Source of the DNA: Eledone cirrhosa
Taxonomy: Eukaryota
Direction of reading: 5' to 3'
Assembly: GCA_964016885.1 (NCBI GenBank)
Contig: CAXHJY010001041.1
Location: 1 to 64,000, forward strand
DNA length: 64,000 nt
Shown: one piece after another, positions 641-44,171 of the stretch
Layout of the letters: every line of letters begins with the position of its first letter
Numbering within the stretch: position 1 is the stretch's first letter
Position numbers and translations under genes: made by a program
The notes under the pieces: model-generated
Told to the model about the DNA's origin: nothing
The model's database searches: none
The model's input: the letters and a program-made list of their open reading frames with translations, nothing else

Positions 641-1100
641 ATTTAAGTAAGTGCCGTACTAAGAGTGAGAAATGAAATTTCGTTTTCATTTTATTACAAC
701 TTATCGTTTTCGGTATGCCTGACCGATTTAACTCACTCAATATGCAAATTAGGCTGCTCAGCCGTTAATTTTCATAAGGAAAGTATATACTTTCGAACGT
801 TCAACCATCTGGCAGAAGGGTATACGGTGCTGATGATAGCTAACAAGCTTGAAACTAGTACATCGTTCCTGTGTCAGTGTTGAACAAAAAGGTGACGTGG
901 TTGCCTTAACACCGTACGGCATAAATTCAGGCTGTTCAGTTTGTTTACAAACGAACAAAGCGGCCTTATAATAAGCGTCCGCTAAACTGATACGTGCATA
1001 TATGTATGTGTACCTGTATGTATATATATATGTATATATATGCATGCTACTGTACGTCTGTATATATATATGTATGTACATATACATACATACTTACATT
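641..1100 (+). mobile_element. Non-autonomous HHR-bearing retroelement, family H1 (retrozyme/Penelope-like)
   Basis: Reverse-complement homologue of 34892-35396 and partly of 10961-11320. Flanked by (TA)n and contains an HHR fold. Confidence 0.75.
817..870 (+). ncRNA. Minimal type I hammerhead ribozyme
   Basis: Stem I ACGGTG (824-829)/CATCGT (861-866); core CTGATGA (830-836); stem II AGCT/AGCT; GAAA (851-854); palindromic stem III ACTAGT; GUA triplet; distal stem AGGG/TCCT. Confidence 0.8.
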
Positions 1101-3530: not shown

Positions 3531-3673
3531 AAGTTGTTTCACTTTTCATACATAGTTTATTTCCACTATTTCTGTAGGCTTTAAACTTGGTATATGTAAA
3601 TAGGAATCAGCTAGTTAAGTGTATATATATATATAGATATATATATGTGTGTATATATGTGTGTGTATATGTG

Positions 3674-3746
<73 letters not shown>

Positions 3747-3804
3747 CAGTGTATTGGAGCTTGTGTAAATACGTGTATGTGTGTGTATACACAAATGAAA
3801 GCAC

Positions 3805-3955
3805 TGACTTGGCAGAGTGGTTAGAACGTCAGATGGAATACCTTGTGGTATTGGTTCCGGCTCTCTCAGTTCAAATCCCGCCAAGGTCCACTTCGCCTTT
3901 CATACATTCCAGGTAGATAAAAAGTACCAGTCTCGTACTGGGGTCGATTCTTCCT
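3805..3955 (+). mobile_element. tRNA-derived SINE, family A
   Basis: A box TGGCAGAGTGG, B box GTTCAAATCC and a GCCTTTCAT...GATAAAAAGTACCAG core shared with about 12 other copies in the window. Confidence 0.85.
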
Positions 3956-4198
3956 TCCTCTCTCTCTCTCTCTCTCACTCTCACCTCTCTCTCTCTCTCT
4001 CCTCTCCTTCCTCCCCTCTCTCTCTCCTCCTTCCTCTCTCTCTCTCTTCCTTCCTCTCTCTCTCTATCCCTCCCCCTCTCTCTCTCTCTCTCTCTCTCTC
4101 TTCTTCCTCTATCTCCTCTCTCTTCTTCTCTCTATTCCTCTCTCTCTCTCTCTCTCTTCCTCTCTATCCTCTCTCTCTCTCTCTTCTTCTCTCTATTC

Positions 4199-4236
<38 letters not shown>

Positions 4237-5230
4237 CTCTCCTTCCTCTCTCTCCTCTCTCTCTCTCTTCCTCTCTCTCTCTTCTTCTCTCTCTCTCTCT
4301 CTCTTCCTCTCTCTCTTCTCTCTCCTCTCTCTTCCTCTCCTTCCTCTCTCTTCCTCTCTCTCTCCTCTCCCTCCTCTCTCTTCCTCTCTCTCCTCTCTCT
4401 CTCCTCCTCTCTCCTCTCTCTCTCCTCTCCTCTCTCTCCTCTCTTCCTCCTCCTCCTCCTCTCTCTCTCTCCTCCTCTCTCTCTCTCTCTCCTCCTCTCT
4501 CCTCCTCTCTCTCCTCTCTCTCCTCCTCTCTCCTCTCTCCTCCTCCTCTCTCCTCTCTCCTCTCTCCTCTCTCTCCTCCTCTCTCCTCCTCTCTCTCCTC
4601 CTCTCTCCTCCTCTCTCTCTCCTCTCTCTCCTCTCTCCTCCTCTCTCCTCTCTCCTCTCTCCTCTCTCTCCTCTCTCTTCCTCTCTCCTCTCTCTCCTCT
4701 CTCCTCTCCTCCTCTCTCTCCTCTCTCTCCTCCTCTCTCCTCTCTCCTCTCTTCCTCCTCTCCTCTCTCCCTCTCTCCTCTCTCCTCTCTCCCTCTCTCC
4801 CCTCTCTCCTCTCTACCTCTCTCCTCTCTCCTCTCTCTCCTCTCCTCCTCTCTCCTCTCTCCTCTCTCCTCTCTCCTCTCTCTCCCTCTCTCTCCTCTCT
4901 CCTCTCCTCTCTCTCCTCTCTCCTCTCTTCCTCCTCTCTTCCTCTCTCCTCTCTCTCCTCTCTCCTCTCTTCCTCTCTCCTCTCTCTTCCTCTCCTCTCT
5001 TCCTCCTCTCTCTCCTCTCTCTCTCTCTCCTCTCTTCCTCTCTCCTCTCTCTCCTCTCTCTCTCCTCTCTTCCTCTCTCCTCTCTCTCACTCTCCTCTCT
5101 CACCTCTCTTCCCTCTCTCCTCTCTCTCACTCTATCTCTCTCTCTACACTCTTCTCTCCTCTACACTCTCTCTCTCCCTCTCACACATATCTCTCCCTCT
5201 ACACTATATCTCCTCCTACACTATATCTCT
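3956..5230. repeat. (CT)n/(CCT)n polypyrimidine tract
   Basis: Read directly; source of the SL/ER low-complexity ORFs. Confidence 0.95.
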
Positions 5231-30094: not shown

Positions 30095-30149
<55 letters not shown>

Positions 30150-30345
30150 ACGCACTCACACACACAGACAGACACGCACGCACACATACACACACACACG
30201 CACAAACACACATATATCTTATATGAAAAAGTTGAAAATAAAAATGCAGTTGGAGTCTTTATGAATGTTTACACTAACTTATAACTTTAACGGTTTCATG
30301 ATTTTCAAAAGTTAAGAGAGATGGAGAGATGTGGGGCTATGCTGA

Positions 30346-30411
<66 letters not shown>

Positions 30412-30413
<2 letters not shown>

Positions 30414-30774
30414 ATATTTGGCAATATATCGCATGTTTAATTAAAACATTTAGAAGACTATACACTATCAGTTTTAAAGTAGTGACTATGTCCCTTACTT
30501 CTTTCGGCGAAAGAAGGGAGAGAAGCTGACAGTCTGTTTCATGTTGGTTGGCGTTCATCAGAGCCACGTACTCCCCTGCTTTCGCCGAAAATTATAGAAT
30601 TCAAGTAATAATCAGGAGCTGATTATACAGAGCGATTTCCGGTCCAGCAAAAATTAGGTATTAGTATTGGTGCTCTGAAATAGCGATGTATACATGAATG
30701 TATGTATAGTATATTTGGCAATATACTGTATGTTTAATTAAAAACATTTAGAAGACCATACACTATCAGTTTTA
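30412..30774 (-). mobile_element. Retrozyme-like element, family H3: about 297-nt monomer with about 65-bp terminal direct repeats
   Basis: Direct repeats at 30412-30476 and 30709-30774; (TA)n on both sides; central HHR. Confidence 0.72.
30502..30590 (-). ncRNA. Type I hammerhead ribozyme with long stem I (stem II eroded)
   Basis: Minus strand: GGCT-CTGATGA-ACGCCAACCAACAT-GAAA-CAGACTG-TC-AGCT, closed distally by GGGAG/CTCCC and TTTCGGCGAAAG/CTTTCGCCGAAA; GUC triplet. Confidence 0.7.
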
Positions 30775-30797
30775 TATATATATATATATATATATAT

Positions 30798-30935
30798 AGG
30801 GAAATGTTCAAGACCCCGACTGCAGAACTCTGCAGTCGGGGTCTTGAACATTTTCCTATTACCCACTCTACTACCCAAAGTATTGAGTACTCTGGTGCGT
30901 TATGGTCCACCTGGTTCCTCACCACACTTCCTTCG

Positions 30936-30937
<2 letters not shown>
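30798..30937 (+). mobile_element. Family H2 fold-back 3' end
   Basis: Perfect hairpin AAATGTTCAAGACCCCGACTGCAGA-AC-TCTGCAGTCGGGGTCTTGAACATTT plus the H2 tail. Confidence 0.7.
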
Positions 30938-44089: not shown

Positions 44090-44171
44090 AAGCTTCGATG
44101 AGGTTCGAACACAAACGATAAGTTCCCAATGGATTAGTAGTCCATCACCTTAACCACTTGGCCACCTCGTC
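44090..44171 (-). pseudogene. tRNA-Ser(GCT)-derived pseudogene
   Basis: Minus strand GACGAGGTGGCCAAGTGGTTAAGGTGATGGACTACTAATCCATTG closely follows the conserved metazoan Ser-GCT 5' half. The anticodon now reads ACT and the 3' acceptor strand does not pair. Confidence 0.8.

What the first reader, a model, noticed from the sequence alone, without database searches (positions are those of the whole stretch)
30412..30774. Family H3: about 297-nt retrozyme-sized monomer with a long-stem HHR
Seen: the same architecture as H1 (about 65-bp terminal redundancy, one HHR, TA flanks) but unrelated sequence. Stem I is extended by a perfect 12-bp helix, and stem II is eroded in this copy. Established: metazoan non-LTR retrozyme monomers are a few hundred nucleotides long. 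Inference: an independent retrozyme family.
Basis: partly seen in the sequence, partly recalled or inferred. Interest (0 to 1): 0.72.

Follow-up and report, generated by a model that had tools for sequence, protein, structure and literature searches.

The report
Decayed copy of hammerhead retrozyme repeat
This stretch is one worn-out copy of a 316-base non-coding repeat that carries a hammerhead (self-cutting RNA) motif and lies in thousands of places in this animal genome, likely pasted in by Penelope-type retrotransposon enzymes; elements of this kind are already described in other animals.

Summary
Window 30412-30774 has a 65-nt terminal direct repeat (period 297-298) and (TA)n on both sides. 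Its minus strand carries one hammerhead core with a perfect 12-bp extension of helix I and a broken helix II.

It is one copy of a dispersed family: 3,556-4,551 first-look candidates, and 463 exact copies of the 29-30-nt core. The family consensus unit is 316 nt; this copy lost 19 nt. The consensus has a complete type I hammerhead with an intact helix II.

In 88 loci I mapped 124 arms:
- 3' ends fall at two fixed sites 27-30 nt apart and mostly abut (TA)n; 5' ends are scattered.
- 81 arms exceed one unit.
- There are 32 head-to-head pairs against 1 tail-to-tail.
- 22 of 24 classifiable pairs carry one end of each type.

These are the published insertion marks of Penelope-like elements.

The best reading is a new family of metazoan non-LTR retrozyme, likely copied from a multimeric or circular RNA. 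This copy is dead. Self-cleavage, RNA circles and the autonomous partner are untested, because no RNA run was available. Earlier notes of this scan report the same kind of element, as other families, elsewhere in this genome.

The parts
30341..30411 (.). (TA)n tract abutting the element's 3' end (sense = minus strand)
   Evidence: Read directly. BLAST to the family consensus runs on to 30389 because consensus positions 1-24 are TA-like.
30412..30774 (-). The H3 copy: one arm of about 1.2 units. Its 5' end lies at consensus position 252 and its 3' end is of the A type (consensus position 24 or lower).
   Evidence: It is 3.7% substituted against the consensus, plus 19 gap columns.
30710..30774 (-). 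5'-terminal partial unit (consensus 252-316). It repeats 30413-30477, which is the 65-nt 'terminal redundancy'.
   Evidence: 96.9% to the consensus over 65 nt.
30413..30709 (-). The one complete unit, 297 nt because of a 19-nt loss near 30600-30610 relative to the 316-nt consensus
30502..30590 (-). Hammerhead motif with its long helix I. The distal 12-bp helix pairs 30590-30579 with 30513-30502. The core is CUGAUGA at 30561-30555, GAAAC at 30540-30536 and GUC at 30530-30528.
30541..30554 (-). Decayed helix II: ACGC, loop CAACCA, ACAU. There are two G-to-A changes against the family's GCGU.
30775..30798 (.). (TA)n on the element's 5' side

Best explanation
Window 30412-30774 (sense on the minus strand) is a 5'-truncated, 1.2-unit copy of a dispersed 316-nt non-coding repeat family whose consensus holds a complete type I hammerhead motif. 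The family was likely spread by Penelope-like retrotransposon enzymes copying a multimeric or, probably, circular RNA next to (TA)n tracts, and this copy is predicted to be dead.

**Shown:**
- the family and its consensus;
- the hammerhead motif in the consensus;
- two fixed 3' ends and scattered 5' ends;
- partial tandems;
- head-to-head arm pairs that carry one end of each type.

**Inferred:**
- Transcripts holding two or more hammerheads would cut themselves after GUC or GUU (consensus position 199).
- The unit-length RNA would be closed into a circle by a host RtcB-type ligase.
- A DNA 3' end in (TA)n would anneal to one of two TA-like sites of the RNA (consensus about 16-24 or about 46-51).
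- A Penelope reverse transcriptase would copy round the template for 0.4 to 3.5 units.
- The second DNA end of the break would often prime at the other site, giving the inverted arm.

The window copy has only one hammerhead, a broken helix II and a 19-nt deletion, so it could not release a unit-length RNA.
For: **Family size**
- 59 scored matches out of 3,556 first-look candidates, at 77-91% identity.
- 463 exact hits of the 29-30-nt core pattern against 0 for the reversed control.
- Thousands of short contigs in an independent DNA data set.

**Consensus**
- 316 nt, 38.9% G+C. Median substitution distance of copies to the consensus is 4.8% and the minimum is 2.3% (63 pieces of 200 nt or more).

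**Hammerhead**
- All core letters are present.
- Helix II is ACGC/GCGU in the A subfamily (33 of 59 copies). In the T subfamily (25 of 59) it is a U.U plus CGC/GCG.
- Helix III is ACA/UGU.
- Helix I has 4 proximal pairs, an internal loop, and about 20 further pairs including a perfect 13-bp end. Minimum free energy is -46.0 kcal/mol, z -6.3.
- My own type I descriptor matches 14 (strict) or 33 (base mismatch allowed) sites in 184,927 nt of family loci, and 0 in 20 shuffles.
- Rfam's HH9 model aligns the core, helix II and helix III at E 0.03.
- A U.U at the base of helix II is described for the axolotl retrozyme ribozyme HHR_Amex2, which still cleaves (PMC7229834, passage read).
- The unrelated hammerhead at window 830-855 has the same layout with different helix letters, AGCU/AGCU.

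**Insertion anatomy (88 loci, 124 arms)**
- 3' ends: 73 at consensus position 25 or lower, 42 at 44-63, 6 at 26-43, 3 internal.
- 5' ends are spread over all 16 bins.
- 81 arms exceed 316 nt, and each continues into another H3 unit.
- 32 head-to-head adjacent pairs against 1 tail-to-tail.
- Of the 32 pairs, 22 carry one A and one B end, 2 are A/A, 0 are B/B and 8 have an unclassifiable end. Binomial P is about 1e-6.
- 32 of 42 B ends run straight into (TA)n.

**Match to published Penelope marks**
- The features Craig et al. list for Penelope-like elements are 5' truncation, partial tandems, an adjacent inverted 5'-truncated copy, a 30-40-bp tail at one end only, and (TA)n targets (PMC8557442, passages read).

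**Template state**
- 114 of 124 arms are longer than 170 nt, so they cross the cleavage site.
- Only 1 of 124 5' ends lies within 5 nt of that site.
- The template therefore had the site joined.

**Shared template**
- The partner arm is the closest relative in 5 of 30 comparisons, against about 0.3 expected.
- The two arms of L038 share a 9-nt deletion.
Against: - No Rfam hammerhead model reaches its gathering score. There was nothing in the window and nothing among the 150 listed matches for 20 family loci. The best result is 18.1 bits against 52 for HH9 on an intact copy.
- The pair at the base of helix II is A-U or U.U rather than the usual G-C. Helix III is weak. The minimum-energy fold pairs CUCUG with CAGAC across the core; an open core costs 4.8 kcal/mol.
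- I saw no compensatory change inside the family. The core is not better kept than the rest of the unit among copies (11.0% against 6.2% mismatches in the unbiased set). So nothing shows selection for cleavage.
- Long arrays, the usual retrozyme sources, are rare. Only about 6 of 40 scored candidates cover a 2.3-unit query.
- By the strict measure only 32 of 73 A ends, and 20 of 60 5' flanks of unpaired arms, are followed by (TA)n.
- No autonomous Penelope element sharing H3 sequence was found in 30 loci.
- In 25 of 30 comparisons the partner arm is not the nearest relative, and in about 8 pairs one arm is much more diverged than the other.
- Cleavage and circles are untested.
Confidence: 0.72

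Rival explanations
1. H3 is a Penelope-dependent non-autonomous repeat, but its hammerhead-like motif is inactive or incidental. In this reading the templates are ordinary read-through transcripts of the few multi-unit copies, with no self-cleavage and no RNA circle.
For: - Rfam models stay below threshold.
- The base of helix II is non-standard and helix III is weak.
- Every long arm crosses the predicted cut site uncut, and there is no pile-up of 5' ends there (1 of 124).
- The core is not better conserved than the rest of the unit.
Against: - The full motif with all core letters is kept in both subfamily consensuses.
- The same layout occurs in an unrelated family in the same window.
- A U.U base pair is tolerated in an active axolotl retrozyme ribozyme (PMC7229834).
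- Arms of up to 3.5 units are hard to derive from sources that are mostly under 2 units.
Confidence: 0.17
2. H3 units are only the terminal repeats (pLTRs) of an autonomous Penelope-like element, seen alone because of severe 5' truncation. They would then not be a family of their own.
For: - Penelope-type endonuclease domains are extremely abundant: 10,597 first-look candidates for PF01541.
- In Xenopus, retrozymes are sequence relatives of pLTRs (bioRxiv 10.64898/2026.07.22.740005, section 14 read).
Against: - All 81 arms longer than one unit continue into another H3 unit, not into coding sequence.
- No same-strand pair of cores 1-6 kb apart appears among the 100 listed core hits.
- 29 of 30 Penelope loci show no H3 likeness. 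The one that does, L063, is an ordinary two-armed H3 insertion 0.9 kb downstream.
Confidence: 0.06
3. H3 is a DNA-level repeat: a minisatellite grown by slippage, or a MITE or Helitron that inserts at TA.
For: - TA-rich flanks and short tandem structure.
Against: - Thousands of dispersed loci have fixed 3' ends but scattered 5' ends. Cut-and-paste or rolling-circle DNA transposons have two fixed ends.
- There are no terminal inverted repeats.
- Head-to-head arm pairs carry different ends.
Confidence: 0.03

Closest known systems
Metazoan non-LTR retrozymes (coral, mussel, axolotl; Cervera and de la Pena 2020, PMC7229834; passages read)
   Same: - Non-coding unit of about 300 nt and low G+C, with one type I hammerhead per unit.
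- Head-to-tail repeats, and thousands of copies.
- Weak helix III.
- A U.U at the base of helix II, as in axolotl HHR_Amex2.
- The proposed life cycle: cleavage, ligation to a circle, then tandem cDNA.
   Different: - H3 occurs almost only as short copies of 0.4-3.5 units rather than dimers to large multimers.
- Its helix I is unusually long, about 25 pairs.
- Expression as linear and circular RNA, shown for those species, is untested here.
- Neither 'cephalopod' nor 'octopus' occurs in that paper.
Penelope-like elements and their insertion structures (Craig et al. [quoted passage not shown]
   Same: - 5' truncation and partial tandems.
- An inverted 5'-truncated copy joined at the 5' end.
- A short tail at one end only.
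- (TA)n association.
- Pairs of hammerheads 100-700 bp apart on opposite strands.
   Different: - H3 has no reverse transcriptase or endonuclease gene.
- Its tail is 27-30 nt, against the 30-40 bp reported.
- Its ribozyme is of the canonical kind, with a 3-4-bp helix II and a helix III. It is not the minimal Penelope variant with a 6-8-bp helix II.
Vertebrate retrozymes as non-autonomous derivatives of Penelope-like elements (Li, Clavereau and Pollet 2026, bioRxiv 10.64898/2026.07.22.740005; abstract and section 14 read)
   Same: - The conclusion that retrozymes depend on Penelope-like elements.
   Different: - Their evidence is co-occurrence across 35 species and sequence likeness to pLTRs in Xenopus.
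- Here the evidence is the anatomy of insertions, and no pLTR relative was found.
Rfam Hammerhead_HH9 (RF02275)
   Same: - The core, the 4-bp helix II with a CCAA-type loop, and a short helix III align.
   Different: - The score is 18.1 bits against a gathering score of 52.
- Helix I does not align.

Membership tests
Hammerhead ribozyme, type I | Conserved core: CUGANGA, GAA, the A15.1-U16.1 pair, and H at the cleavage site | tested here: met
   Present in the window copy, in the consensus of 59 copies and in 463 exact genomic copies of the core.
Hammerhead ribozyme, type I | Helix II closed by a loop | tested here: met
   Family: ACGC/GCGU in 33 of 59 copies; U.U plus CGC/GCG in 25 of 59. Not met in the window copy, where 2 of 4 pairs form.
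Hammerhead ribozyme, type I | Helix III closed, helix I open (type I topology) | tested here: met
   Helix III is ACA/UGU with loop GAC. Helix I is formed by the strands before CUGAUGA and after GUC. Helix III does not form in the constrained fold of a single motif.
Hammerhead ribozyme, type I | Match to a curated covariance model at its gathering score | tested here: not met
   No hammerhead hit in the window or among the 150 listed hits of 20 loci. HH9 scores 18.1 bits against 52 on an intact copy.
Hammerhead ribozyme, type I | Compensatory changes that keep the helices | tested here: inconclusive
   There are none within the family. One A-to-G change keeps a pair as G.U. Across two unrelated families of the window the helices are built from different letters.
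Hammerhead ribozyme, type I | Self-cleavage at the predicted site | not testable with these tools
   This needs in vitro transcription.
Metazoan non-LTR retrozyme | Unit of 150-450 bp with one type I hammerhead, low G+C, no coding capacity, no LTR | tested here: met
   316 nt and 38.9% G+C. The longest open frame is 52 codons in a trimer of the consensus.
Metazoan non-LTR retrozyme | Head-to-tail tandem copies, from dimers to large multimers | tested here: inconclusive
   81 of 124 arms exceed one unit, but in a sample biased to long copies. The maximum is 1,103 nt and no large array was found.
Metazoan non-LTR retrozyme | Expressed as unit-length linear and circular RNA | not testable with these tools
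   No RNA run is listed for the organism.
Element mobilised by Penelope-like elements | Fixed 3' end with scattered 5' truncation, and partial tandems | tested here: met
   115 of 124 3' ends fall at two sites, while 5' ends lie in all 16 bins.
Element mobilised by Penelope-like elements | Inverted 5'-truncated copy joined at the 5' end | tested here: met
   32 head-to-head pairs against 1 tail-to-tail.
Element mobilised by Penelope-like elements | [quoted passage not shown] | tested here: met
   22 of 24 classifiable pairs have one A end and one B end, 27-30 nt apart. The published length is 30-40 bp.
Element mobilised by Penelope-like elements | Microsatellite, (TA)n, target | tested here: inconclusive
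   32 of 42 B ends and 32 of 73 A ends are followed by (TA)n, and the A end is itself TA-like. Only 20 of 60 5' flanks of unpaired arms are (TA)n.
Element mobilised by Penelope-like elements | Sequence shared with the terminal repeat of an autonomous element | tested here: inconclusive
   None in 30 loci, out of 10,597 first-look endonuclease candidates.

The most novel reading that the evidence does not exclude
H3's two-armed copies record how Penelope-like elements integrate. Both DNA ends of one endonuclease break prime on the same small circular hammerhead RNA, at two fixed TA-like sites 27-30 nt apart. That would explain, in one step, the one-sided 'tail', the inverted terminal repeats and the partial tandems of Penelope-like elements.
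Probability: 0.3. Interest if true: 0.6.

Novelty: new member of a known kind. Interest (0 to 1): 0.36.

Why it matters
On its own this locus is a dead repeat copy of no consequence to the host.

The family adds one more retrozyme lineage, in a mollusc group for which I found no retrozyme paper. One search returned a listing of 15 papers only, and 'cephalopod' and 'octopus' do not occur in PMC7229834.

Its thousands of short copies also give a clean, countable record of Penelope-type insertion: two fixed ends, one of each per two-armed copy. How Penelope-like elements make tandem and inverted structures and the one-sided tail is stated as unsolved in PMC8557442. A small non-coding passenger with sharply defined ends makes that question testable.

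The same signature was already noted by this scan for other families of this genome. H3 is therefore an independent replicate rather than a first sighting.

Tried and rejected
- **Rfam:** the gathering scan of the window found only a tRNA. An E-value scan of 30300-30900 found no hammerhead. An E-value scan of 20 family loci listed 150 matches, all microsatellite-like miRNA artefacts, with 23 lower-scoring hits not shown.
- **RNA evidence:** no RNA holder was listed. The three runs found (X1-X3, one sample, one study) behave as genomic DNA contigs. They gave no information on expression, ends or circles.
- **Autonomous partner:** a PF01541 search followed by BLAST of the H3 consensus against 30 loci gave only L063, an ordinary nearby H3 insertion.
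- **Linear cleaved monomer as template:** rejected. Only 1 of 124 5' ends lies at the cut site, and 114 of 124 arms are longer than such a template allows.
- **Snap-back copying of the first arm as the origin of the second:** rejected, because the two arms meet at different unit positions.
- **Hypermutation or RNA editing as the cause of the more diverged arm:** no A-to-G or other excess.
- **Purifying selection on the core among copies:** none seen.
- **Earlier notes on this family:** look-up by sequence found none.
- **Likeness of H3 to the other hammerhead of the window:** none by BLAST at E 0.01 or lower.

Full report
**Observation**

- Window 30413-30477 is repeated at 30710-30775 with a period of 297-298 nt, at 92.4% identity over 66 columns.
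- (TA)n runs lie on both sides, at 30341-30411 and 30775-30798.
- The hammerhead is on the minus strand: CUGAUGA at 30561-30555, GAAAC at 30540-30536, GUC at 30530-30528.
- Folding the minus strand of 30495-30602 gives a perfect 12-bp helix (30590-30579 with 30513-30502) at the far end of a long, interrupted helix I. It gives no helix II (-35.8 kcal/mol, z -3.9).
- The loose core pattern occurs 3 times in the window against 0.28 expected. One of the other two, at 830-855 on the plus strand, is a second hammerhead in an unrelated repeat.

**The family**

The window lies in a 3.0-Gb genome (G000, contig C1068).
- The 363-nt stretch finds 59 scored matches out of 3,556 first-look candidates. Many cover the whole query at 85-91% identity.
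- A 2.3-unit query finds 4,551 candidates.
- The 29-30-nt core pattern has 463 exact hits and none for the reversed control.
- From 185 pieces of 84 arms I derived a 316-nt consensus unit with 38.9% G+C.
- Copies differ from the consensus by a median 4.8% in substitutions, with a minimum of 2.3%. The window copy differs by 3.7% and has lost 19 nt, which is why its unit measures 297 nt.
- No frame stays open for more than 52 codons.
- Only this one copy lies in the window.

**Is it a hammerhead?**

In favour:
- In the consensus of 59 copies every core letter is in place.
- Helix II is ACGC/GCGU with loop CAACCA in the A subfamily (33 copies). In the T subfamily (25 copies) it is a U.U followed by CGC/GCG; that subfamily also has GUU instead of GUC at the cut site.
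- Helix III is ACA/UGU around GAC. As a palindrome-like stretch it could also pair between two motifs.
- Helix I has four proximal pairs, an asymmetric internal loop and about 20 more pairs (-46.0 kcal/mol, z -6.3).
- The window copy's helix II carries two G-to-A changes and keeps 2 of 4 pairs.
- A descriptor of my own finds 14 (strict) or 33 (base mismatch allowed) sites in 184,927 nt of family loci, and none in 20 shuffles.
- A U.U at the base of helix II and a short helix III are described for active axolotl and invertebrate retrozyme ribozymes (PMC7229834, passages; PMC4209133, passages).
- The hammerhead at 830-855 has the same layout built from other letters.

Against:
- No Rfam hammerhead model reaches threshold. 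On an intact copy, HH9 aligns the core, helix II and helix III at 18.1 bits, E 0.03, against a gathering score of 52.
- The lowest-energy fold closes the core. An open core costs 4.8 kcal/mol.
- There is no compensatory change within the family.
- The core is no better kept among copies than the rest of the unit. That is expected for copies that decay neutrally, but it gives no positive support either.

**Anatomy of insertions**

I mapped 124 arms of 40 nt or more in 88 distinct loci onto the consensus. The sample came from four searches and is biased towards long or core-bearing copies.
- 3' ends fall at two sites: 73 at consensus position 25 or lower (A) and 42 at 44-63 (B). Six lie between and 3 are internal.
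- 5' ends are spread over all sixteen 20-nt bins.
- 81 arms exceed one unit, and each continues into another H3 unit. The longest is 1,103 nt.
- 32 adjacent pairs of arms are joined 5' end to 5' end, against 1 joined 3' to 3'.
- Of those 32 pairs, 22 carry one A and one B end, 2 are A/A, none is B/B, and 8 have an unclassifiable end. Unpaired arms split 40 A to 19 B, so the excess of mixed pairs has a binomial P of about 1e-6.
- B ends run straight into (TA)n in 32 of 42 cases. A ends are themselves TA-like and are followed by more (TA)n in 32 of 73. The 5' flank of unpaired arms is (TA)n in only 20 of 60.
- Contigs of an independent DNA data set show the same two ends running into (TA)n, and opposite-strand joints at varied positions.

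**Mechanism (inferred)**

These are the marks listed for Penelope-like elements: strong 5' truncation, partial tandems, an inverted 5'-truncated copy at the 5' end, a 30-40-bp tail at one end only, and (TA)n targets (PMC8557442). Penelope-type endonuclease domains are very abundant here, with 10,597 first-look candidates.

A linear unit released by cleavage cannot be the template. Arms primed at the A or B site would then stop at position 200 after about 140-170 nt. In fact 114 of 124 arms are longer, and only 1 of 124 5' ends lies near the site. The template therefore had the site joined. It was either an uncleaved multimer or a religated circle.

Genomic copies with two or more units are scarce, yet arms reach 3.5 units. 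I therefore favour copying round a circle, as proposed for retrozymes (PMC7229834, discussion passage), but this is not shown.

That the two arms of a pair come from one template is supported in part:
- The partner is the nearest relative in 5 of 30 comparisons, against about 0.3 expected. The L038 arms share a 9-nt deletion.
- In about 8 pairs, however, one arm is far more diverged than the other, with no editing-like bias. I cannot explain this.

**What could not be done**
- No RNA run is listed for the organism, so expression, ends and circles are open.
- No autonomous partner was identified.
- No other animal genome was available for covariation.

**Comparison and novelty**

H3 works like, and fits the testable definition of, a metazoan non-LTR retrozyme (PMC7229834). 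Its dependence on Penelope-like elements agrees with the 2026 preprint on vertebrates (10.64898/2026.07.22.740005; abstract and section 14).

Earlier notes of this scan describe other retrozyme families of this genome (units of 310-311, 422 and 468-469 nt) with the same Penelope marks, including two fixed outer ends. Look-up by sequence found no note on H3 itself.

H3 is therefore a new member of a known kind. The window copy is a dead one. The one-of-each rule for arm ends is the most useful detail.

Noticed in passing
window 830-855 (+), context 780-905: A second hammerhead core: CUGAUGA, helix II AGCU/AGCU with a U.U at its base, GAAAC, and a palindromic ACUAGU before the cut. It has a long interrupted helix I and shows no BLAST likeness to H3. 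An H1-like core also lies in L086, near a Penelope endonuclease match.
   Followed up: partly
window 30799-30936: A different dispersed repeat (1,485 first-look candidates) sits in the same (TA)n tract. Most copies match only from base 27 on, at 96-97%. The window copy's 29-bp perfect hairpin (30797-30856, hit by plant miRNA models in Rfam) therefore looks like a short inverted arm, that is, another two-armed insertion.
   Followed up: partly
L011:1878-2165: In the second arm of this two-armed H3 locus, the hammerhead core segment is inverted in place between CUCUG and CAGAC.
   Followed up: no
L011, L013, L029, L044, L054, L058, L108 (two-armed H3 loci): One arm, usually the shorter, is 6-15 points more diverged from the consensus than its partner. 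There is no A-to-G or other mutational bias.
   Followed up: partly
L031:187-887: A 2.2-unit relative of H3 at only 69% identity to the consensus, ending in (TA)n. It may belong to an older sister subfamily.
   Followed up: no
G000 as a whole; L063: PF01541 (GIY-YIG) gives 10,597 first-look candidates, so Penelope-like elements appear to be very abundant. L063 has an ordinary two-armed H3 insertion 0.9 kb downstream of one such open frame.
   Followed up: partly
window 44096-44171 (-): A tRNA match just above Rfam's gathering score (32.8 bits against 29).
   Followed up: no
window 30100-30215: A long (AC)n-type microsatellite lies 130 nt upstream of the (TA)n tract that holds H3.
   Followed up: no
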